IMG/VR virus record: IMGVR_UViG_3300042691_041392
Strand: one strand, 5' to 3'
Length of the DNA: 64,000 nt
Origin: a virus
Shown: positions 5,619-60,185 of the stretch, piece after piece
Layout: each line of letters begins with the position of its first letter
Numbering within the stretch: the stretch's first letter is position 1
The notes under the pieces: generated by a model
Told to the model about the DNA's origin: nothing
The model's database searches: none
What the model saw: the letters and a program-made list of their open reading frames with translations, nothing else
Made by a program: the position numbers and the translations under genes

Positions 5619-6242
5619 ATGAGATTTATAAAGAAAATTAATGAATTTTTCAACCCTGAATCTGAAATTGAAAGAGAAGATGATTTCTATGGTCATGATG
5701 AAGAAGAAGGTGATTTCGGTCACGAAGATGATTTCTATGGTCATGACGAAGAAGAAGGTGATGAATTTAATCATGATGAAGAAAATTGGGGTGATGAAGA
5801 AGATTCATCATTAGGTGGATCAAGAATTTCATCATTTGATAATTTTGGTTCTGATGAAGAAGAATGTGAACCGTGTAACGATGAAGAGGATGAGTATTCT
5901 CACGAAGATTTTGGTCATGAAGACGAAGAAGATTTTTCTCACGAAGAAGATGAGTATTCTCACGAAGATTTTGGTTCTGATGAAGACGAAGATGAGGATG
6001 AAAATTTTGAAGAAGATACTTATGTTGAGTCTTTCAAAGGTTTCAATGAAAAAATGAATGCTGGTTTCAAAGCTTATTTAGATAAAAAGAAAGCTGAGAA
6101 AGAAGGTAAAAAAGAGGATAAAGATGAGAAAAAAGGTGGTAAAAAAGGTGCTAAACCAGATTTCTTAGATTTAGATAAAGATGGTGATAAAAAAGAGCCA
6201 ATGAAAAAAGCAGCTAAAGAAGCTAAAAATAAAAAGAAATAA
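5619..6242 (+). CDS. Highly acidic, probable prohead core/internal protein
   Basis: MRFIKKINEF N-terminus, D/E-rich internal tandem repeats, C-terminal 'KPDFLDLDKDGDKKEPMKKAAKE', late motif upstream. Confidence 0.7.
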   Translation: MRFIKKINEFFNPESEIEREDDFYGHDEEEGDFGHEDDFYGHDEEEGDEFNHDEENWGDEEDSSLGGSRISSFDNFGSDEEECEPCNDEEDEYSHEDFGHEDEEDFSHEEDEYSHEDFGSDEDEDEDENFEEDTYVESFKGFNEKMNAGFKAYLDKKKAEKEGKKEDKDEKKGGKKGAKPDFLDLDKDGDKKEPMKKAAKEAKNKKK

Positions 6243-22008: not shown

Positions 22009-22767
22009 ATGAATTCATATAGTTTTAGCTGTATAATTTTATACAGACACAATATACAGAGATGGAACAATCTAAAAAGAATACTGGAGTGGATAACTGG
22101 ATTTTCTAATGTAGAATTAATAATAGTTGAACAAGATACACATTCTAAAATTGGTCATTTAAACTTTCCAGGAAAACATATCTTTACAAAATCAAAAATG
22201 CCATTCAACCGTTCTTGGGGATTTAATGTTGGTTTAAAACACGTTAATTCAAAAGTTACGGTTTTTACAGACTGTGATTTGATAATGAACCCTGAACTAT
22301 TTATAAGTGGTTTGAAATCATTAGAACAGTTTGAGATGGTTAGTCCTTATAATTCTGTTGTTGATTTAAACCCACAAGAAAGTGGATTTCAATTAGAAGA
22401 GATGTTAAAAATTGATAGACCAGGTAGGGGTGAAAATGATATTCAAAAAATCAACATCTCCGGAGGTATAACTATGTTTAGAACGGATGCTATTAAAAAA
22501 ATCGCAGGGTGGAACGAAGACTTTATTTCTTGGGGAGGTGAAGATGACTTTCAAACTGTTAAGGTGGAGAACTTTTTAACGTGGTATGAACAACCGGGAA
22601 GATGTTACCATCTTTATCACGATAAAGAAAAAATTGACATGAAGTGGTATCAGAGAAATTTACAATTGTTATCGAAATTGAAGTCATTAACAAGAGAAGA
22701 ATTGAGTAAACAAATCATGACTAGTTCTCCAAAAATTGGAATGAAAAATAAATATGATAATTTTTAA
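22009..22767 (+). CDS. Glycosyltransferase (GT2/GT7-C, galactosyltransferase-like)
   Basis: 'IVEQD', 'FNRSWGFNVG', 'DCD' and 'WNEDFISWGGEDD'. Confidence 0.85.
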   Translation: MNSYSFSCIILYRHNIQRWNNLKRILEWITGFSNVELIIVEQDTHSKIGHLNFPGKHIFTKSKMPFNRSWGFNVGLKHVNSKVTVFTDCDLIMNPELFISGLKSLEQFEMVSPYNSVVDLNPQESGFQLEEMLKIDRPGRGENDIQKINISGGITMFRTDAIKKIAGWNEDFISWGGEDDFQTVKVENFLTWYEQPGRCYHLYHDKEKIDMKWYQRNLQLLSKLKSLTREELSKQIMTSSPKIGMKNKYDNF

Positions 22768-23681
22768 ATATTATTTAATAAAATATCTTCAATTTTATTA
22801 AAATCTTTATATGAAATTCTTAAAAGATGAATATTTTTAGATTTACAATATTCATCTTTTATTTTATCACATTCTATTGTGTATTTTAACTTATCCATTC
22901 CACCTTGAAATCCCAGTGGTTTGAAGTGTTGTATACCATCATATTCGATTAAAATATTTTTATCTGATAACCAAAAGTCAAATGATAATTTTTTATTTTT
23001 TATACAATCATCAAATTTTTTCTGTGTTTCGTATGTTATATTATTTTTTATTAGAAATCTCTCTATTCTATTCTCACCTCTAGATTGATTACATTTTGGA
23101 CAACCCTTACCATCTAAGTGATTTGATGGCATTTGTTTAAATGATCCATGTTTTGGGCAAATTATTTCCACTGGTGTTTTAGCATTTATATAATTTAACT
23201 TCGAATAATCATATAGAACACCATGTGTATTATTCGCTTTGCTAGGGAAAAATTGTGAGTATTTTTTAATGTTAGTATTTTTAGTTTTTTGTATTTTACA
23301 TCTAGGACATCCTTGTCCTCTAAGATGTTTATTTGGGGTTTGGTCAAAATATCCATGTATAGGACAAGATATATGAACTTTCGTACCATCATTAATATAT
23401 TCTACTTGATCATAATTGTAGAAGTTATTATGAACTTTATTTGATTGATCAATGAATTTGGACAAACTTTTACTGAATGATTTTTTATTTTTATCAATTG
23501 CACATTTTTTACAACCCTTACCAATTAAATGATTATATGGTAATTGTTCAAAATATCCATGTATAGGACATCCAATTAGTATCTTCGTTTTCGCGTTTAT
23601 GTAATTTACTCTATCATAATTATAAAAATTGTTATGCACATCATTTGCCTTTTTTATAAAGTTGTAAAACTTATCATCCAT
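22764..23681 (-). CDS. Homing endonuclease, CPxHG zinc-repeat plus PD-(D/E)XK-type nuclease
   Basis: Third paralog; 'SFDFWL...IEYDGIQH'. Confidence 0.85.
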   Translation of the reverse strand: MDDKFYNFIKKANDVHNNFYNYDRVNYINAKTKILIGCPIHGYFEQLPYNHLIGKGCKKCAIDKNKKSFSKSLSKFIDQSNKVHNNFYNYDQVEYINDGTKVHISCPIHGYFDQTPNKHLRGQGCPRCKIQKTKNTNIKKYSQFFPSKANNTHGVLYDYSKLNYINAKTPVEIICPKHGSFKQMPSNHLDGKGCPKCNQSRGENRIERFLIKNNITYETQKKFDDCIKNKKLSFDFWLSDKNILIEYDGIQHFKPLGFQGGMDKLKYTIECDKIKDEYCKSKNIHLLRISYKDFNKIEDILLNNI

Positions 23682-24996: not shown

Positions 24997-25031
24997 ATTT
25001 TATATATTAATATCTTATAGTTATATATTAA

Positions 25032-26285
25032 TTATAAAATATTAAATTCTTCAAATAATTTGGTTTTGAAAATTGTTTCGATAGGTTCTTTATATTTTTT
25101 AGGAATAATTATACTATCATGTACAGTAACTAATTTTACTTCAGGGTAAAAAATCATTATATCTCTTATGATTTTATTAAAAATTAAATTAGATTCTGCT
25201 CTTTGTAATTCATATGATAGAATTTTATAATCACCTTTTTCTTTTTTATAAAGTTTTATAAAATAATGTATTGATGGAAATAATTCAGAAAATACTTTAT
25301 CTGCTTTACTATTGGAAGCATTCTTACCAAAAAGAACTCGGTAAGTCATTTCTTTAACCATTCCTTTATCAGTAGTTTTTAAATGATCCATTACATATTG
25401 ATAATATTTACCATTTATGGTTAAATATTTGAATAATTCAAACTCATCACTTCTAACCCATTTTGAGTTACTATCGGAAATTATTTTTGTTAAAAAAAGA
25501 GGTTGGCTGTTGTTGATATCAATTTCACAAGTTTCTTCACCATCTATCAGTAAACAGTTTTTTCTAATGAATGATTTTAAAATTGTGAAATTTGTGTGCA
25601 TTCTACCATAATTATCAAAATGATAGAATATGTGTTTATCATTTATACACTCTACTGAATATTTATTTCTATTATAAATATCACTATCATTATCTTTTAA
25701 ATTATCTAAATAAAATATTGATCTATCAAATTGAATATCAATATAAAAAAGATCATCTACTAACTTCGTTTTGATATCATCATCTATAAGTTTGTTTTTA
25801 ATACCATCTTCTTCAATTTGACAAACATTATTTCGATACTTTTTAAGTAAAATATTATCCGAATTTCTATATCGATTTATTTTACCTTTTAGAACTTTAT
25901 CATTTATTTTATAAACTCTAGCATTTCTACCAGCTTGGTAATTGGAGATCATTTCTAGTATATTATTATCTACTAAATATCCAATATAATAATTATAAAG
26001 ATATCCATACTTATCTTTTAGGATAGTTGACATTAAGTTAAATTTATTCTCTTTTTTAAAATAATATTTTAAAATAAGATTGTGTATTATATCAACTATA
26101 TAAGATGATTTTAATTTTACACCTTTGTACTCAAAATTTTTATTTTCAGATAATTCTTCTAAGATAGTTGGTAAGAATTGTAAACTTGATTTTTTAGTTT
26201 CAAGTTTTTTTCTGATAGTTGAGTGAAATTTTTTATCCTCAATTTCTAAGACTTCTAAATTCATAGATATTATATCATGTATCAT
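25032..26285 (-). CDS. PolA-family palm-domain protein lacking an exonuclease
   Basis: 'YGRMHT', motif A-like 'EIDINNSQP', 'LQRAES' and motif C 'TVHDSI'. Confidence 0.65.
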   Translation of the reverse strand: MIHDIISMNLEVLEIEDKKFHSTIRKKLETKKSSLQFLPTILEELSENKNFEYKGVKLKSSYIVDIIHNLILKYYFKKENKFNLMSTILKDKYGYLYNYYIGYLVDNNILEMISNYQAGRNARVYKINDKVLKGKINRYRNSDNILLKKYRNNVCQIEEDGIKNKLIDDDIKTKLVDDLFYIDIQFDRSIFYLDNLKDNDSDIYNRNKYSVECINDKHIFYHFDNYGRMHTNFTILKSFIRKNCLLIDGEETCEIDINNSQPLFLTKIISDSNSKWVRSDEFELFKYLTINGKYYQYVMDHLKTTDKGMVKEMTYRVLFGKNASNSKADKVFSELFPSIHYFIKLYKKEKGDYKILSYELQRAESNLIFNKIIRDIMIFYPEVKLVTVHDSIIIPKKYKEPIETIFKTKLFEEFNIL

Positions 26286-26295
26286 GATTTTAGTT

Positions 26296-26469
26296 CTACT
26301 TTTTAAAAATTTTCTTTATCTTATTTCTTCTAATTTCGGATCTTAAAATACCTTCTAAAAAATTATCATCAATACCATAATGATGACTTAAATCTGTCAC
26401 CATTTCAACACTCCATTCAGCTTTTAATGCTTTAGTGCTCACCTCAACAGATTTCATTTTTATACTCAT
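26296..26469 (-). CDS. 57-aa mini-protein: gp23-like peptide plus RRNKIKKIF motif (not in ORF track)
   Basis: MSIKMKSVEVSTKALKAEWSVEMVTDLSHHYGIDDNFLEGILRSEIRRNKIKKIFKK; ATG overlaps the upstream TAA (TAATG). Confidence 0.75.
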   Translation of the reverse strand: MSIKMKSVEVSTKALKAEWSVEMVTDLSHHYGIDDNFLEGILRSEIRRNKIKKIFKK

Positions 26470-27791
26470 TACTTAACTCCTTTCTCATCAACTATTGATG
26501 TTATTTTACCACCTTTACCTTTTTTCTTTTTATCTTCTGATCCTTTTTGTATTTCATCAAATACATCTGGATAAACTTCTCCTTCAGCATCTGTTTCATA
26601 TTGAATATCAAAAAACTCATCAAAGTCTAAAAGACCAGATCTTGTTAACTCAACTTCATGTATCTTATTCAAGTATCTATCAATATACTTATCAATATCA
26701 TCAACAAATAAGTTGAATAACTTAACCGTATTTTCAGTAAAAACTCCAATTGGTTTTTTTCTTTTCTTATTAAATGAACCAAGAATTATTTTAAAGATAT
26801 ATTCAAGTTTAGAATCTAATTCTAAATATTCTTTAGTCATCTTGTTTGGAATTAATTCTTTATTTATTTTAAATTTTTCTTTATCAAAAAATTCCGGTAT
26901 TATAAACTCAAAATTTACTAAGTCATCTTTAACTTCATCTAAATAAAAATTGTACAACTTACAAATTAGATAAATATAAATCTCATCTTTTTTAGTACCT
27001 TTTAGTTTAATATCTTCTAAATTTAAAGATTGACAAAAATTCAAAAAGTTAATTAAGATTAATGAGTATATTTCCACATAGTCAGTTGACTTATCACTAC
27101 TTACTCTTTTATATAGTGGATTTAGTAATTGAAATGATATATCTTTACTATCTATTCTAACAATTAGCTTTTCTAAATTTTCTTGAAATTCATCAAGCAT
27201 TAAAAAAGAATTTTCCGAGAGTGGATTTAATATTTTATAAAAGAAAAAGGCAAAAGACTTATCACCAAAAACATATTCTAAATCTTCTTCACTTGTGTTT
27301 AAAAAATACTTTATAGCCTCAATCATTCTCTCTGTTAATTTACCCTGAAATATAACCGGTATCATATCAACATTCATCAATCTAGAATATTCATCAATCT
27401 CTTCGATATTAAACTCATATTTACCACTTTTATAAATAGATGTTAATACTAATCCATTTTTTGGAAGTTTATCATATTCTATATTTGCTGGTTGATTATC
27501 AGGAAAGTACTCAAAACAAAACCACCATTTTTTATTTAAAAGTGATTTAACTCTATTATCTAGTGAATCTAAGTATTTTATAGCTGGGTTATAATAATTT
27601 TGCATAGCTAAATCAATTAGATTAATAGAATCACTATTAATTGATTTTGCTTTTATAGTAAAATCTTTACCATTCCAATTAACCCATATTTTACTTCCTT
27701 GAATATCTTCGAATACGGTTATATCATTACTAAACATAGAGTTAAGTAATTCTGTATTTTCTAAATCATTAAGTGTTTTTAAATTACTCAT
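26469..27791 (-). CDS. RNA-ligase-fold protein with degenerate catalytic motifs
   Basis: Motif I-like 'EDIQGS' (no Lys), III-like 'FCFEY', 'IPVIFQG' and IV-like 'EKLIVR'. Confidence 0.55.
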   Translation of the reverse strand: MSNLKTLNDLENTELLNSMFSNDITVFEDIQGSKIWVNWNGKDFTIKAKSINSDSINLIDLAMQNYYNPAIKYLDSLDNRVKSLLNKKWWFCFEYFPDNQPANIEYDKLPKNGLVLTSIYKSGKYEFNIEEIDEYSRLMNVDMIPVIFQGKLTERMIEAIKYFLNTSEEDLEYVFGDKSFAFFFYKILNPLSENSFLMLDEFQENLEKLIVRIDSKDISFQLLNPLYKRVSSDKSTDYVEIYSLILINFLNFCQSLNLEDIKLKGTKKDEIYIYLICKLYNFYLDEVKDDLVNFEFIIPEFFDKEKFKINKELIPNKMTKEYLELDSKLEYIFKIILGSFNKKRKKPIGVFTENTVKLFNLFVDDIDKYIDRYLNKIHEVELTRSGLLDFDEFFDIQYETDAEGEVYPDVFDEIQKGSEDKKKKGKGGKITSIVDEKGVK

Positions 27792-27865
27792 ATTTTTTTA
27801 TACTTTTTGTTTTGATTTTTGTTTTTATCCAAACTTACTTATATATAAAAAATATAAAATGTAGT

Positions 27866-38140: not shown

Positions 38141-38183
38141 GAATAATATAAAAATTAATATATAAGAAAAATATATTATAGTT

Positions 38184-44102: not shown

Positions 44103-44130
44103 ATAAGTTTTTATTTTTAATATATAATTT

Positions 44131-53686: not shown

Positions 53687-53719
53687 AGTTTATATATTAA
53701 AATTGAAAAATGTATAAAC

Positions 53720-53765: not shown

Positions 53766-55517
53766 TTAGTTAAGTAATTGATTTCTATCAGTTACAACGA
53801 TAGTCATAAATTGTTTTTGTGGGAACCAACCAACTTCAGCTACTGCGTATCTAGATCTTAGTAACATTCTTGGAGCGAAAGTCGCTTCAGAAATAACTGA
53901 GATAGATTGAGCCATTAAGTAAGGTACGAAGATGATACCTGGTTGATCAGGATTGTTTTTTCTACCTAAAACGATTCTGTTGTCGTTATATTTCATGTAT
54001 GGATCAACATAGATAGAAATATCACCAATTGAACCAACAGGATATAATTGACCTTGTCCGTTTAATTTAGATTTAACTGGGTTAATAGTGTAACCAGCGA
54101 TATCTTGTAAAGCTGCAGCTAATCCCCCGTTTGTGATTAAGTATTGAGCTGGACCTACACGACCTTCAGTTGCGATGTAGTTAGAAGCGTGAGCAATCTT
54201 AGTGATTAACTTTCTTTGAACAGCGTGTGTAGTTTCACCTGTTACAGCAGCACTAGCATAAGCTGTGTTTAAGTCAAAGATTGTTGAAGCAGAACCAGTA
54301 ATTAAAGTACTTGATAAAGAAGTATTTAATGGAGCTGATGTTCTGTTTAACGCACCCATCTCAAAGATTTTAGCAACGATTTGTTTAGAAATTGTTTGAG
54401 ATAACTCGTTAACAAGGATAGATTCCATTTTTTGAACGATATCCATACCTGTGTTAGCTTTAATATCTTCAATTTCTGTTCTTCTTAAAGCTGAAGATAC
54501 TTCAATAGTACCAACTGCGATAGTTTTAGAAGAAATTTTTGGTCCGATAACACCAGCGTAAGAGTCATCGTCAGCATCTCTACCCATTGGGTAAGAACCA
54601 GCAGCGTTAGAAGTAGCAACACCTGTCCAGTTTGCAGAGAAACCAGGGATATGATCTTCTAATGCAGATACTAATTCAACAGTTTTTGTACTTGCACCTG
54701 ATACAGAGTGAGTACCAACAAGAACGATTTGAGATGACATAGAAGCCGTAGCTGAGAATGTATTTCTTGTAGAGTCAAAAGCCCAAGCAGTTGTAAATTG
54801 GTTTACACCTGTGTGAGATGTGTTAGCTTGTCTGTAAGCTCTGAAGATTGGGTAACCATCGATACGAGAGAAACCTAAGAACTCAGCGTAAGCAGCTTTG
54901 TTTGAAGGCTCAGTTTGAGTAAACTCACCACCTACTGGTGCTTCAGATCCTGCTGTGTTAGATGCAGTACCTAAAGTAACCCATACTCTACCACCTTGAA
55001 GACCACCACTTGTTTGAGTAATGTTATATCCAGATAATTTAGTGTTTAATGTTGTAGTAACATTTCCTAATGTAGTAGAGTCTAAGTTTAATTTGAAAAC
55101 TTGTGGTCTCTCATCAGATGCGCCTAATCTTGTATCATCATATTGGAAATCAATATAAAGTAAATCAATTTTCGGACCTGGAGAAGGTTTAACAGCTACT
55201 AAATCTAAACCGATTGTTTGAGCAGCGATTTTCATAGCTACTGGTAAAAGGTTTTGACCAACGTCTCCTGAACCAGCAACACCACCCCAGTTTGCACCAA
55301 CTGTAACACCTGAAGGTGTATTTGAACCAATAACTGGATTTAAAACAGCACCCATACCTGCTACGTTAGAAGCATTTACATATGCATTTTCATTGATTGA
55401 GTGAAACTCAGCGTATTCCGCCATCCATTCAACTCTATCACCTGTAACTCCCATGTTCTCAAGAACCGGAGCCCATTTCTTAGTTGCTTTCGCTTTGTCT
55501 ATTCTAATGTGTGACAT
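53766..55517 (-). CDS. Major capsid protein (T4 gp23-like)
   Basis: 'KKWAPVLE', 'IYVDPY', 'IIFVPY' and 'TFAPRMLLRSRYA'; highly biased codons; downstream of the protease. Confidence 0.93.
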   Translation of the reverse strand: MSHIRIDKAKATKKWAPVLENMGVTGDRVEWMAEYAEFHSINENAYVNASNVAGMGAVLNPVIGSNTPSGVTVGANWGGVAGSGDVGQNLLPVAMKIAAQTIGLDLVAVKPSPGPKIDLLYIDFQYDDTRLGASDERPQVFKLNLDSTTLGNVTTTLNTKLSGYNITQTSGGLQGGRVWVTLGTASNTAGSEAPVGGEFTQTEPSNKAAYAEFLGFSRIDGYPIFRAYRQANTSHTGVNQFTTAWAFDSTRNTFSATASMSSQIVLVGTHSVSGASTKTVELVSALEDHIPGFSANWTGVATSNAAGSYPMGRDADDDSYAGVIGPKISSKTIAVGTIEVSSALRRTEIEDIKANTGMDIVQKMESILVNELSQTISKQIVAKIFEMGALNRTSAPLNTSLSSTLITGSASTIFDLNTAYASAAVTGETTHAVQRKLITKIAHASNYIATEGRVGPAQYLITNGGLAAALQDIAGYTINPVKSKLNGQGQLYPVGSIGDISIYVDPYMKYNDNRIVLGRKNNPDQPGIIFVPYLMAQSISVISEATFAPRMLLRSRYAVAEVGWFPQKQFMTIVVTDRNQLLN

Positions 55518-55603
55518 AATTAATTTATTTTTTTTTATTTTTTTTATAATCTATATATTACCTTAATTTTACTCGTTTTTTTCAAGTGTGGATTTTTTAT
55601 AGA

Positions 55604-57712: not shown

Positions 57713-57856
57713 GTAAAATAGTTATTTTTTGTATAAATTATAGTGTATATATTGCCTTATCAAACTCCTCTTTTTTCTATATGGATTTTTTACAGTAACT
57801 AAATTTTATAAATACCAAAAGGCTTTTTAAATCATGATTTTTAAAACATTTTCAAA

Positions 57857-58288
57857 ATGAAAAATAAAATACATGTATATTTATATAAAATGATTCTAAC
57901 TAGAGAAATAGATGTAAAGATTAGTGAGTCCAATTTTCATTACTATGAAGACTTAGGATATGATATAGGATTGGGTGAGGTTATTACCATACCAGTAGAA
58001 TTACTTTCGAAAGGTTCCCATCATAAAATAAAGTGCCAATGTGATAGTTGTGGTATAGAAAAACAGGTTATATATAAAAACTATCTTAAATACGACAATA
58101 AGAATTGGGGAGACTATTTTTGTAGAAAATGTTCAGAAATAAAAAGAAAAGAAACACTAAGAAAAAACTTTGGTGTTGATTATCCTATACAAAATAAAAA
58201 AGTATTATCTAAAATGAAAAATACCTTAGTTGAAAAATACGGTGTAGATAATATATCAAAAAAGAATAAAATAAATAAAGATGGCTAA
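57857..58288 (+). CDS. Zn-ribbon protein resembling a homing-endonuclease DNA-binding region with no nuclease domain
   Basis: 'KGSHHKIKCQCDSCG', 'CRKC' and 'KYGVDN' repeats. Confidence 0.6.
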   Translation: MKNKIHVYLYKMILTREIDVKISESNFHYYEDLGYDIGLGEVITIPVELLSKGSHHKIKCQCDSCGIEKQVIYKNYLKYDNKNWGDYFCRKCSEIKRKETLRKNFGVDYPIQNKKVLSKMKNTLVEKYGVDNISKKNKINKDG

Positions 58289-60185
58289 ATACAATGAAGG
58301 AGATATTCTTGAATCTCAAATAGAATTCTCCGTTAGCGGAAATGCAACTGTCAAAGTTGATGGAAAAGAATTTTTCGTACATAAAAAGAGAACGTTAAAT
58401 TCACTACACTTAGATAAAGTAAGATTTGTTCTCTTTAAAGGAGAAAAAAAATTAGAAGCAAAAGTAATAGAGGTAGTTGAAAGATTTAAATTAGAATTTG
58501 TAGGAACTACTCAAGTTAAAAAAGATCACACATTTGTTATACCAGATAACTCAAAAATACACGTTGACTTTTATATAAAAGGTAAACACTCAGCAGAAGA
58601 TAATCAAAAAGTACTTGTTAAATTTGATAGTTGGGAAAACGGTCAAAAATCACCAAATGCTAAAATTGTTAAAATTTTAGGAACTGTTGGTGAGAATGAA
58701 ACCGAAATGAACGCTATTATGTATGAATATAACTTACCAGTGGATTTCCCACAAGAAGTTTTAAATGAATCAGAGTTAATATCAGAAGTTATTACTGAGA
58801 AAGAGATATCTAAAAGAAGAGATTTGAGAAATATAACTACAATCGGTATCGATCCGTTTGATTCAAAAGATGCTGATGATACAATCGGATTAGAATTTAA
58901 AGATGGTAAAAGATATGTTTCTATAAATATCGCAGATGTTACACACTATATAAAACCAGGAAGTGCCTTAGATGAAGAAGCTTATAAAAGATCATCTTCT
59001 GTTTATTTAGTTGATAGATGTGTGCCAATGATACCAAAAAGATTGAGTAATGGTATATGTTCTTTAAAATCAGGTAGTGATAAACTATGTTACTCTGTTA
59101 TAGTTGAATTAGATACAAATGGTAGAATTGAAAACACTTGGTTTGGTAGAACTATTGTAAACGTAAATAAAGACTATTCTTATGAAATGGCTCAAGAAGT
59201 TATCGACAGAGGAACAGCATCAGAAGAAAATAAAGATTGTGATGAGGTTATTTTAGAATTACACAGATTAGCTTTAAAAATGAGAAGAAGAAGAATGTTA
59301 GGAGGTTCCATGGAAATTGGTGGTGTTGAAGTTAAATTCAAATTAGCTGATGATAATAAAAAACCAATTGGACTTTATTTAAAAGAACAAAAAGAAGCTA
59401 ATCACTTAATAGAAGAATATATGTTATTAGCGAATAGAGAAGTTGCTAAGTTTATTAAGTCTAGAGGGTTACCTTGTGTTAATAGAATTCACGAAGAACC
59501 GGATGAAACTAAATTAGAACATATTAAAACATTCATATCAACTTTAGGATATGAAGTAAATTACGGTGATACACCTGAGAAGACTAAATTAGTTATAAAT
59601 GAACTAATGAAAAGTTGCAAAGGAACTAGTGAGGAAAACATCATTACAACTTTAATAGTTAGAGCTCAGCAAAAGGCTAAATATACAACTAGAAACATTG
59701 GTCATTATGGTTTGGGATTTGAACACTATTCACACTTCACAAGTCCGATTAGAAGATATAGTGATATGTTGACACATAGATTATTATCAATGGCATTGAA
59801 AAGTGAGGGATATAGTAAAGATGTTAAACCAAACGAATTAGAAAAACAATGTGAGTGGATATCTAAACAAGAAGTAGTATCAGCAAAAGCTCAAAGAGAT
59901 TCTATTAAGTATAAACAAGCTGAATACTTAGGAGACAGAATTGGTCAAGTTTTTGATGGAATTGTTTCAGGTGTATTAGATAGAGGAATCTATGTAGAAT
60001 TGTTTGAAAGTAAATGTGAAGGTTTAATAAAACTAAGTAGTTTAGAAGGAAAATGGATGGCTTATCCAGATAATTACTATGCTGTTAGTGATTTAGGTGA
60101 TAAAGTTAGATTAGGTGATCCAATAAAGGTTGTTGTTAAGTCAGTTGATTTAGAAAAGAAACAAATCGATTTTTTAAAATTTTAA
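58281..60185 (+). CDS. rnr: Ribonuclease R (RNB family)
   Basis: 'IDPFDSKDADD', 'IADV', 'LIEEYMLLAN', 'YSHFTSPIRRYSD' and C-terminal S1. Confidence 0.92.
   Translation: MAKYNEGDILESQIEFSVSGNATVKVDGKEFFVHKKRTLNSLHLDKVRFVLFKGEKKLEAKVIEVVERFKLEFVGTTQVKKDHTFVIPDNSKIHVDFYIKGKHSAEDNQKVLVKFDSWENGQKSPNAKIVKILGTVGENETEMNAIMYEYNLPVDFPQEVLNESELISEVITEKEISKRRDLRNITTIGIDPFDSKDADDTIGLEFKDGKRYVSINIADVTHYIKPGSALDEEAYKRSSSVYLVDRCVPMIPKRLSNGICSLKSGSDKLCYSVIVELDTNGRIENTWFGRTIVNVNKDYSYEMAQEVIDRGTASEENKDCDEVILELHRLALKMRRRRMLGGSMEIGGVEVKFKLADDNKKPIGLYLKEQKEANHLIEEYMLLANREVAKFIKSRGLPCVNRIHEEPDETKLEHIKTFISTLGYEVNYGDTPEKTKLVINELMKSCKGTSEENIITTLIVRAQQKAKYTTRNIGHYGLGFEHYSHFTSPIRRYSDMLTHRLLSMALKSEGYSKDVKPNELEKQCEWISKQEVVSAKAQRDSIKYKQAEYLGDRIGQVFDGIVSGVLDRGIYVELFESKCEGLIKLSSLEGKWMAYPDNYYAVSDLGDKVRLGDPIKVVVKSVDLEKKQIDFLKF

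What the first reader, a model, noticed from the sequence alone, without database searches (positions are those of the whole stretch)
26296..26469. Unannotated 57-aa ORF carrying a foreign-looking gp23 peptide plus the tag
Seen: 'TKALKAEWSVEMVTDLSHHYGIDDNFLEGILRSEI', translationally coupled to the upstream gene (TAATG). From memory it resembles canonical T4-type gp23 (SRQLKAAYSIELAQDLRAVHGMDADAELSGILATEI) much more than this phage's own capsid at that position (SSALRRTEIEDIKANTGMDIVQKMESILVNEL). Inference: a capsid epitope captured from another T4-like lineage and kept as a tagged peptide.
Basis: partly seen in the sequence, partly recalled or inferred. Interest (0 to 1): 0.8.

Follow-up and report, generated by a model that had tools for sequence, protein, structure and literature searches.

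The report
Tagged capsid-excerpt mini-gene, giant phage
A giant uncultured phage and dozens of its relatives keep a tiny, selected gene that joins a 46-residue slice of a classical T4-type capsid protein, unlike the phage's own divergent capsid protein at that spot, to a short helical end-tag shared with other small proteins; it looks like a molecular mimic, but its target is unknown.

Summary
The 57-codon ORF (26296-26469, minus strand) is real. It overlaps the stop of the upstream gene in TAATG and passes Pfam's Gp23 cut-off (36.3 bits, E 5.8e-9).

It is a conserved gene, not debris:
- An intact ortholog lies directly before a compact family-A-polymerase-like gene in 61 of 76 related huge-phage loci.
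- 24 of 27 orthologs hit Gp23 on their own.
- dN/dS is 0.2-0.4 for most close pairs.
- The end-tag is kept through synonymous codon changes.

The family resembles canonical gp23 far more than the clade's own capsid protein. Its profile scores 36-59 bits against canonical and long environmental gp23, and 11-14 bits against own capsid proteins.

"Captured from another lineage" is not shown. The event is old, no close donor exists, the base composition is native, and retention of an ancestral state fits equally well. One sub-lineage carries an own-capsid-like version at the same locus.

Related genomes hold further tagged mini-ORFs, each a different canonical-type gp23 piece. My best reading is a bait-plus-tag capsid mimic with an unknown target.

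I found no published description. This scan has noted the same gene class on other genomes.

The parts
26296..26469 (-). 57-aa mini-gene (stop codon included): a gp23 excerpt plus a C-terminal tag
   Evidence: ORF listing. Pfam Gp23 36.3 bits. 27 distinct orthologs aligned, of which 24 hit Gp23 on their own. dN/dS is 0.2-0.4 in most close pairs.
26332..26469 (-). Residues 1-46: the gp23-like part. It corresponds to T4 gp23 residues about 252-298, from the strand region after the insertion domain into the first part of the spine helix.
   Evidence: The family profile matches T4 gp23 252-304 at E 5.9e-8 and gp24 166-215 at E 9e-4. Residues 292, 306 and 307 of gp23 lie in the spine helix (PMC9546572). 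The AF2 model has residues 1-20 extended, then helices 21-30 and 35-56.
26305..26331 (-). Residues 47-55: the C-terminal tag (R-R-N-K-I-K-K-I-F). It is predicted to continue the spine-type helix without a break.
   Evidence: Motif enrichment: 8 observed against 0.235 expected, 7 of them at C-termini. R47 is invariant and I51 nearly so among orthologs. The tag codons vary synonymously. The predicted helix 35-56 is continuous, with its highest pLDDT in residues 41-50.
26467..26471 (-). TAATG: a one-base overlap between the upstream gene's stop codon and the mini-gene's start codon
   Evidence: Sequence. The same overlap is kept in 20 of 33 distinct related loci.
26469..27791 (-). Upstream 440-aa gene, RNA-ligase-like (a lead only)
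   Evidence: No Pfam hit. The nearest ESM Atlas clusters carry PF09414 RNA_ligase. 67 related loci were found.
25032..26285 (-). Downstream gene, a compact family-A DNA-polymerase-like protein. Its likely true start is the ATG at 26262-26264.
   Evidence: AF2 model: pLDDT 86, pTM 0.81. Foldseek top hits are all family-A polymerases, with probability 1.0 and E from 7.5e-4. The mini-gene ends directly upstream of this gene in 61 of 76 related loci.
26269..26276 (-). GATATAAT motif just before the polymerase-like gene's likely start. It lies inside the first codons of the ORF as listed.
   Evidence: A similar ATATAA motif sits 4-7 nt before that ATG in nearly all relatives. A promoter role is inferred, not shown.
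27812..27848 (-). Upstream control region of the operon: a TTATATATAA promoter-like motif (27839-27848) and a conserved leader element (27812-27832)
   Evidence: Motif scan. Both elements are conserved before the 440-aa gene in about 40 distinct relatives.
53766..55517 (-). The phage's own major capsid protein (583 aa), used for comparison
   Evidence: Pfam Gp23 97 bits. Its homologous segment is shorter by about 4-7 residues and nearly invariant across the clade. It scores only 13.4 bits against the mini-gene profile.

Best explanation
The ORF encodes a real, conserved mini-protein with two parts.

- The first part is a 46-residue excerpt of a classical T4-type major capsid protein. It covers the strand region after the insertion domain, a short helix, and the first part of the spine helix.
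- The second part follows in the same predicted helix. It is a roughly 9-residue basic amphipathic tag (R-[KR]-x-[SK]-I-x-[KN]-I-F).

In related genomes the same tag ends other mini-ORFs, each carrying a different canonical-type gp23 piece.

Shown:
- homology to gp23;
- conservation and purifying selection;
- peptide-level conservation of the tag;
- conserved position (stop/start overlap with an RNA-ligase-like gene, directly before a compact family-A-polymerase-like gene);
- greater likeness to canonical gp23 than to the phage's own capsid protein.

Inferred: the protein cannot form a capsid subunit, so it most likely works as a soluble mimic (a bait). The gp23-like part would occupy the site of a partner that normally contacts this capsid segment. 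The tag would hand the complex to whatever reads the tag.

The partner is unknown. My split among candidate partners is:
- a host immune sensor of capsid proteins, blocked by competition: about 0.25;
- T4-type capsid proteins of co-infecting phages, with assembly interference: about 0.2;
- the phage's own head assembly or its control: about 0.15.
For: - Homology: Gp23 hits for the ORF and for 24 of 27 orthologs. The family profile matches T4 gp23 252-304.
- Synteny: present in 63 of 76 loci that hold the polymerase-like gene, and directly adjacent in 61. TAATG is kept in 20 of 33 distinct variants. The same three genes occur in the public 634-kb phage record LR745206.1.
- Breadth: at least 70 clusters of 53-75-aa relatives in a search of 1.84 billion representative proteins.
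- Selection: dN/dS 0.2-0.4 in most close pairs. The tag is kept through synonymous changes, including CGN/AGR arginine codons.
- Fast evolution: orthologs share 30-50% identity, the flanking genes 54-76%, and the capsid protein 70-83%.
- Canonical likeness, in bits: 12-50 for most orthologs against a canonical gp23 model versus -3 to 15 against an own-clade model. The family profile scores 56-59 against long environmental capsid proteins, 36-47 against cultured T4-like phages, and 11-14 against own capsid proteins.
- A wider set: pieces B, C and D in related genomes carry the same kind of tag and are also canonical-like. The exact S-I-N-K-I-F ending occurs only on pieces A and B in five genomes.
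- Structure: an extended N-terminus plus one long helix running through the tag, with no globular fold.
- Precedent for a non-activating competitor of a structural-protein sensor: DSAD1 against DSR2 (PMC11087589).
Against: - No partner, expression data or localisation is known, so the bait idea rests on what the fragment cannot be.
- Canonical likeness fits poorly with a decoy that protects the phage's own, divergent capsid protein.
- The own-capsid-like variant at the same locus in one sub-lineage fits poorly with a weapon aimed only at foreign capsids.
- The gene is missing, with the two flanking genes abutting, in about 11 of 76 loci, so it is dispensable.
- One close pair has dN/dS 0.8, and more distant pairs sit near 0.5-1.0, though dS is compressed in this AT-rich DNA.
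- Tight linkage to two nucleic-acid enzymes could mean a role unrelated to capsids.
Confidence: 0.55

Rival explanations
1. Recent capture of a foreign capsid piece. A fragment of a co-infecting T4-like phage's gene 23 was picked up by recombination and is kept as a tagged peptide.
For: The family is far closer to canonical and long environmental gp23 than to the clade's own capsid protein. T4-sized contigs with such capsid proteins come from the same sample series as the megaphage contigs. A deeper relative of 597 kb has the own-type capsid protein and no detected mini-gene.
Against: The gene is shared across a deeply diverged clade, so it is not recent. No donor is closer than about 40-48% identity. 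Its G+C matches its neighbours. The tree gives no donor. Ancestral retention explains the same data.
Confidence: 0.3
2. Minor structural or assembly part of the phage's own head. The excerpt adds a strand or helix to the shell of the very large capsid, or acts as an assembly helper, and the tag anchors it there.
For: The operon sits behind the same promoter-like motif class that precedes the capsid, protease, portal and tail genes. One lineage carries an own-capsid-like version. C-terminal tags can address cargo to HK97-fold shells, as in encapsulins (from general knowledge).
Against: The gene evolves fast while the own capsid segment is nearly invariant. It keeps motifs that the own capsid protein has lost. 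It lies among nucleic-acid enzymes rather than in the head module. It is absent in about 11 of 76 loci.
Confidence: 0.12
3. Small subunit or regulator of the adjacent compact family-A polymerase-like enzyme or the RNA-ligase-like enzyme. The capsid ancestry would be incidental.
For: It lies directly upstream of the polymerase-like gene in 61 of 76 loci and stays with that gene when the ligase-like gene is elsewhere. It is translationally coupled to the ligase-like gene in 20 of 33 variants.
Against: Selection keeps precisely the gp23 consensus residues. Sister pieces with the same tag lie at unrelated loci. The two enzyme genes abut and persist without it in about 11 loci.
Confidence: 0.08
4. 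Non-functional relic, or an ORF kept open only because it overlaps control signals of the next gene.
For: The likely promoter-like motif of the next gene lies just after the ORF, with only 10 nt between the stop and the next listed ATG. One copy is frameshifted (L123) and some lineages lack the gene.
Against: The ORF is intact in 26 of 27 distinct variants despite 50-70% amino-acid divergence. Conservation is column-specific and matches gp23. The tag shows synonymous variation. dN/dS is below 0.4 in most close pairs.
Confidence: 0.04

Closest known systems
T4 gp23 major capsid protein and gp24 vertex protein (Pfam PF07068; PDB 6UZC, 5VF3, 7VRT, 1YUE)
   Same: Clear sequence homology to one segment: gp23 residues 252-304 and gp24 residues 166-215. 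The residues conserved in the mini-gene family are the gp23 consensus residues.
   Different: It covers only 47 of 376 model positions and has no A domain, P-domain sheet, N-arm or insertion domain, so it cannot form an HK97-fold subunit. It is fused to a tag, encoded outside the head module, and evolves much faster.
DSAD1 of phage SPbeta, inhibitor of the DSR2 defence protein (PMC11087589)
   Same: It is a concept match for the decoy reading: a small phage protein that competes with a virion structural protein for the sensor's binding site.
   Different: No sequence or fold relation was tested or is expected. I know of no report that DSAD1 is an excerpt of the trigger protein. No sensor is known for the mini-gene.
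Encapsulin cargo-loading peptides and the T4 capsid targeting sequence
   Same: A short shared terminal peptide on otherwise unrelated small proteins.
   Different: The reader of this tag is unknown. The T4 targeting sequence is N-terminal and is cleaved. Here the tag continues a capsid-type helix. Nothing shows that these proteins are packaged.
Gol peptide of T4 gp23, activator of the Lit protease (from memory: gp23 residues about 93-122)
   Same: A short stretch of gp23 that acts on its own as a signal in phage-host conflict.
   Different: It is a different part of gp23: this ORF aligns to residues 252-304. Gol is not a separate gene. Weak matches to the N-terminal part of the Gp23 model in two relatives may cover that region and were not followed up.
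Capsid-protein homologues of phage satellites that redirect helper capsid assembly (PICI Ccm; from general knowledge)
   Same: It is a concept match for the interference reading: a capsid-protein relative used against another phage's assembly.
   Different: Those are complete HK97-fold proteins that co-assemble. This is a 46-residue excerpt.

Membership tests
Pfam Gp23 (PF07068) sequence family | HMM match above the curated gathering score | tested here: met
   36.3 bits against a cut-off of 24.4, E 5.8e-9. 24 of 27 orthologs match, best E 4.4e-15.
Functional T4-type capsid or vertex subunit (gp23 or gp24) | A complete HK97 fold (N-arm, P domain with sheet and spine helix, A domain) able to form capsomers | tested here: not met
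   Only model positions 136-183 of 376 are present. The AF2 model is an extended stretch plus two helices. Foldseek finds no fold match.
Shared C-terminal tag class of this phage clade | The motif R-[DENRK]-x-[KS]-[IL]-x-x-[IL]-[LFY] within a few residues of the C-terminus, enriched over chance | tested here: met
   8 observed against 0.235 expected, 7 of them at C-termini. This ORF ends 2 residues after the motif. It belongs to the basic sub-variant shared with the other small gp23 pieces.
Shared C-terminal tag class of this phage clade | Selection acts on the peptide and not on a DNA signal | tested here: met
   The Arg, Ile, Ser, Phe and Leu codons of the tag vary synonymously among 27 orthologs.
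Pseudogene or recombination debris | Frameshifts, stops, patchy presence and neutral evolution in relatives | tested here: not met
   The ORF is intact in 26 of 27 distinct variants. There is one frameshifted copy (L123), and dN/dS is 0.2-0.4 in most close pairs.
Gol-type gp23 signal peptide | Corresponds to the Gol region near the N-terminus of gp23 | tested here: not met
   It aligns to gp23 residues 252-304. The Gol coordinates are from memory.
Competitive decoy of a defence sensor (DSAD1-like) | Binds a host sensor at the site used by the structural-protein trigger, without activating it | not testable with these tools
   No host genome, no sensor candidate and no complex prediction were available.
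Horizontally captured foreign gene piece | A donor lineage identified by phylogeny or by atypical composition | tested here: inconclusive
   The tree resolves only the own capsid proteins against all the rest. G+C is native. The best identity to any full-length capsid protein is about 40-48%.

The most novel reading that the evidence does not exclude
This ORF is one member of a library of 'excerpt plus tag' mini-proteins in megaphages. Each would display one conserved motif of a classical T4-type virion protein on a common address helix. Together they would act as a programmable panel of molecular mimics, either blocking host sensors of conserved virion proteins or poisoning the assembly of competing T4-like phages. 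The bait part would be exchangeable at a fixed locus, as the own-capsid-like and tag-only variants at this locus suggest.
Probability: 0.3. Interest if true: 0.85.

Novelty: new variant of a known kind. Interest (0 to 1): 0.66.

Why it matters
If these mini-proteins are mimics, they would be a new class of phage counter-measure or inter-phage weapon. Each is a short excerpt of a conserved virion protein fused to a common address tag.

They would also point directly to the capsid surfaces that hosts or rival phages recognise. This ORF supplies a clean test case:
- it is 57 residues long;
- it has a known structural counterpart in T4 gp23;
- it has hundreds of natural variants;
- natural variants at the same locus are canonical-like, own-like, tag-only or absent.

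Even without a known function, the finding shows that small ORFs in huge phages can be selected fragments of structural genes. Annotation pipelines should not discard them as debris.

Tried and rejected
1. The tag as a DNA signal, for example a late promoter read as peptide. Rejected: the tag codons vary synonymously.
2. The tag as merely the surviving second half of the spine helix. The invariant Arg does align with the conserved Arg of the gp23 helix, and the own capsid protein aligns through the tag region. However, piece B in relatives holds a full spine helix and, after a linker, the tag as well. This idea is left as an unproven lead.
3. Derivation from a second full-length capsid paralogue of the gp24 type. 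Each of five large relatives has only one full-length Gp23 match.
4. Flanking sequence carried along by a homing endonuclease. The neighbours are conserved core-like genes, not mobile ones.
5. Close longer homologues by word search: none found.
6. Fold search with the 57-residue model: uninformative.
7. Profile search of the polymerase-like gene against PDB sequences: nothing. Its fold was found only by structure.
8. Other gp23 pieces in this window, using a canonical-model scan of all six frames: only the capsid gene and this ORF.
9. Literature searches for capsid-fragment genes in huge phages: no description found.
11. No whole genome is held for the window.

Full report
**1. The observation**

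The minus strand of 26296-26469 holds a 57-codon ORF with the quoted peptide. Its ATG shares one base with the TAA of the upstream 440-aa gene, giving TAATG. The next listed ORF starts 10 nt after its stop.

The peptide passes Pfam's curated threshold for Gp23: 36.3 bits against 24.4, E 5.8e-9, model positions 136-183 of 376. It also matches PHROG 138, major head protein.

The window is 28.6% G+C. It carries a T4-type head module: portal, prohead-protease-like gene and a 583-aa Gp23-family capsid gene at 53766-55517. No whole genome is held for it.

BLASTP gives 18/45 identities (E 4e-8) to a T4-type gp23 and no homologous alignment to the phage's own capsid protein.

**2. It is a gene, not debris**

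The two flanking genes recover 67 and 76 loci in IMG/VR, on contigs of up to 597 kb.

- A profile of the mini-ORF finds it in 63 of the 76 loci that hold the downstream gene. In 61 of these it ends directly before that gene.
- There are 27 distinct variants, of 53-83 aa. They share only 30-50% identity with the window copy but align well throughout.
- 24 of the 27 hit Gp23 by themselves, best E 4.4e-15.
- The one-base TAATG overlap with the upstream gene is kept in 20 of 33 distinct variants.
- dN/dS for the closest pairs is 0.20, 0.22, 0.37 and 0.40. One pair is at 0.80. Distant pairs are unreliable because dS is compressed in this AT-rich DNA.
- A search of 1.84 billion representative proteins gives 1546 hits at E up to 1e-3. 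About 70 of the top 150 are 53-75-aa proteins that match end to end.
- The public 634-kb phage record LR745206.1, which has no annotation, has the same three genes in the same order.
- The exact window protein is in public collections, and a near-identical member of its cluster is named only 'hypothetical protein'.

**3. What part of the capsid protein it is**

The family profile aligns to T4 gp23 residues 252-304 (E 5.9e-8) and to gp24 residues 166-215 (E 9e-4).

[quoted passage not shown] The preceding stretch follows the insertion domain, whose linkers stand in for the HK97 E-loop and take part in contacts within and between capsomers (PMC9546572).

AlphaFold2 with 105 family sequences gives pLDDT 83.5. 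Residues 1-20 are extended, followed by a short helix (21-30) and one long helix (35-56) that runs from the spine-helix part straight through the tag. There is no globular fold, and Foldseek finds nothing.

The protein therefore cannot be a capsid subunit. It displays one strand-plus-helix element of such a subunit.

**4. The tag**

The motif R-[DENRK]-x-[KS]-[IL]-x-x-[IL]-[LFY] occurs 8 times in the window's 118 ORFs of 40 aa or more, against 0.235 expected in shuffled proteins. Seven of the eight lie within 4 residues of a C-terminus.

In the mini-gene family the tag's Arg is invariant and the first Ile nearly so. The tag codons vary synonymously (AGA, AGG, CGT, CGA, CGC; ATA, ATC, ATT; TTT, TTC). 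Selection therefore acts on the peptide.

This family carries a basic sub-variant, R-[KR]-x-[SK]-I-x-[KN]-I-F.

**5. More canonical than the phage's own capsid protein**

| Comparison | Score (bits) |
|---|---|
| Most orthologs vs a model of seven cultured T4-like gp23 proteins | 12-50 |
| Orthologs vs a model of 81 own-clade capsid proteins | -3 to 15 |
| Family profile vs long (550-670 aa) environmental gp23-type proteins | 56-59 |
| Family profile vs cyanophage, Flavobacterium-phage and Tevenvirinae-type gp23 | 36-47 |
| Family profile vs own-clade capsid proteins | 11-14 |

In the alignment the own capsid segment is nearly invariant across the clade and lacks about 4-7 residues that the mini-genes and canonical proteins share.

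A 52-column tree has one relevant well-supported split (SH-aLRT 97): the own capsid proteins on a long branch against everything else. The mini-genes are unresolved among the canonical sequences.

**6. Origin: capture is not shown**

- The gene is old within the clade.
- Its G+C (27%) matches its neighbours (24% and 22%).
- No full-length protein is closer than about 40-48% identity.
- Each of five large relatives has only one full-length Gp23 match, so a lost gp24-type paralogue cannot be seen.
- A 597-kb deeper relative has the own-type capsid segment and no detected mini-gene. This is compatible with later gain or with loss.
- T4-sized contigs that encode the long canonical-type capsid proteins come from the same sample series. 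Co-occurrence of such phages is therefore plausible, but no more than that.

**7. Variation at the locus**

- In about 11 of 76 loci the two flanking genes abut and no mini-gene lies between them.
- One copy (L123) is frameshifted.
- In one sub-lineage (L091, L048, L136) the ORF at the same position matches the own-type capsid segment without gaps. It scores 18.8 bits against the own-clade model and 3.5 bits or less against the canonical models.
- In L143 a small ORF at this position carries the tag and no gp23 part.

The locus thus keeps the tag and the position while the bait part differs.

**8. A wider set**

In four of the five large related genomes searched, Pfam Gp23 also finds other small ORFs of 57-98 aa. 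Each covers a different part of the model:

- the full spine helix (model positions 155-194);
- an A-domain motif (220-260);
- the C-terminal P-domain motif (300-376).

There are also two paralogues of about 260 aa, and weak hits to the N-terminal part of the model.

The small ORFs all carry the same kind of tag. In two of the C-terminal-motif pieces it lies inside the ORF rather than at the end. All are closer to the canonical model than to the own-clade model, for example 23.5 against 2.0 bits and 29.5 against 1.7 bits. The 263-aa paralogue is own-like, at 40.3 against 1.8 bits.

The exact S-I-N-K-I-F ending occurs only on this family and on the spine-helix piece. These two overlap in the gp23 region they cover and are probably paralogues.

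In this window, a six-frame scan with a canonical model finds only the capsid gene and this ORF.

**9. Neighbourhood**

- The downstream gene folds with confidence (pLDDT 86, pTM 0.81). All its top Foldseek matches are family-A DNA polymerases.
- The upstream gene is RNA-ligase-like, on a language-model lead only.
- The operon follows a TTATATATAA motif and a conserved leader element, both kept in about 40 distinct relatives.
- The related motif TAATATATA sits 5-35 nt before many genes of the window, including the capsid, protease and tail genes.

The timing of expression cannot be inferred safely from this.

**10. Interpretation**

What is solid: this is a conserved, selected, fast-evolving mini-protein that fuses a canonical-type gp23 excerpt to a shared helical tag. 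It is one of a set of such proteins.

What is inferred: it acts as a mimic of that capsid element. The fast overall change combined with fixed gp23 consensus residues suggests a partner that reads the classical motif.

A defence-sensor decoy has a precedent in DSAD1, which competes with the tail tube protein for DSR2 (PMC11087589). It does not explain, however, why the bait differs from the phage's own capsid protein. Interference with rival T4-like capsids explains the canonical likeness but not the own-like variant. A role in the phage's own head assembly fits the promoter motif class but not the fast evolution or the gene's dispensability. I therefore commit to the bait-plus-tag mimic at 0.55 and leave the target open.

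**11. Novelty and earlier notes**

Four literature searches and one paper check found no description of such genes.

Earlier notes of this scan report the same gene class on other genomes and the same tag in this genome. I re-derived the tag enrichment, the canonical likeness and the multi-piece set independently here.

Noticed in passing
window, e.g. 55552-55559, 57746-57753, 53691-53698, 38157-38164, 44119-44126, 25001-25008: The motif (T)AATATATA sits on the coding strand 5-35 nt before about 20 gene starts. These include the capsid, protease-like and tail genes and an HNH endonuclease gene. Many copies lie only 5 nt from the ATG, which suggests leaderless or near-leaderless transcripts.
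   Followed up: partly
window 27812-27832 (minus strand); L001-L067 about 5940-5990: A conserved leader element of the form TGATAAAAACA(A/G)AAATCA (the window copy reads TGGATAAAAACAAAAATCAA), with short inverted ends. It lies between the promoter-like motif and the start of the RNA-ligase-like gene and is kept in about 40 distinct relatives. It may be a regulatory hairpin or an operator.
   Followed up: partly
window 25032-26285 (minus strand): A compact protein of about 410 aa with a confident family-A DNA polymerase fold and invariant D-x-x-N-S-Q-P and H-D-S motifs. It is conserved across the clade, although these phages also have a family-B polymerase. Its listed start is probably 7 codons too early: a GATATAAT motif precedes the second ATG.
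   Followed up: partly
window 26469-27791 (minus strand): The 440-aa protein is RNA-ligase-like by language-model neighbours only and has no Pfam hit. Where a ligase motif I (K-x-D/H-G) would be expected, the sequence reads E-D-I-Q-G-S, so the catalytic lysine may be missing.
   Followed up: no
L233, L234, L243, L236; L239, L238; L229, L237, L248 (related genomes G001-G004): Other tagged mini-ORFs of 57-98 aa, each carrying a different canonical-type gp23 piece: the full spine helix, an A-domain motif, or the C-terminal P-domain motif. In L237 and L248 the tag lies in the middle of the piece.
   Followed up: partly
L091, L048, L136 (about 5607-5828 in L091); L143; L123: Variants at the same locus. 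One sub-lineage has a mini-gene that copies the own-type capsid segment, one locus (L143) has a tag-only small ORF, and one copy (L123) is frameshifted.
   Followed up: partly
P0042 (164 aa), P0045 (120 aa), P0069 (189 aa): Metagenomic small proteins that combine gp23 pieces in unusual ways. P0042 has two tandem copies of this segment. P0045 has the segment followed by the conserved N-terminal capsid motif (the region I recall as Gol-like) in permuted order.
   Followed up: no
window 22764-23681 (minus strand): A 305-aa HNH or homing-endonuclease-like gene (PHROG 559, E 5e-76) with three treble-clef zinc-finger repeats. It lies between a glycosyltransferase-like gene and the 238-aa capsid paralogue.
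   Followed up: no
window 58281-60185 (plus strand): An RNase II/R-type exoribonuclease gene (RNB, CSD2 and S1 domains; E 2e-98) sits inside the head module, between the protease-like and portal genes.
   Followed up: no
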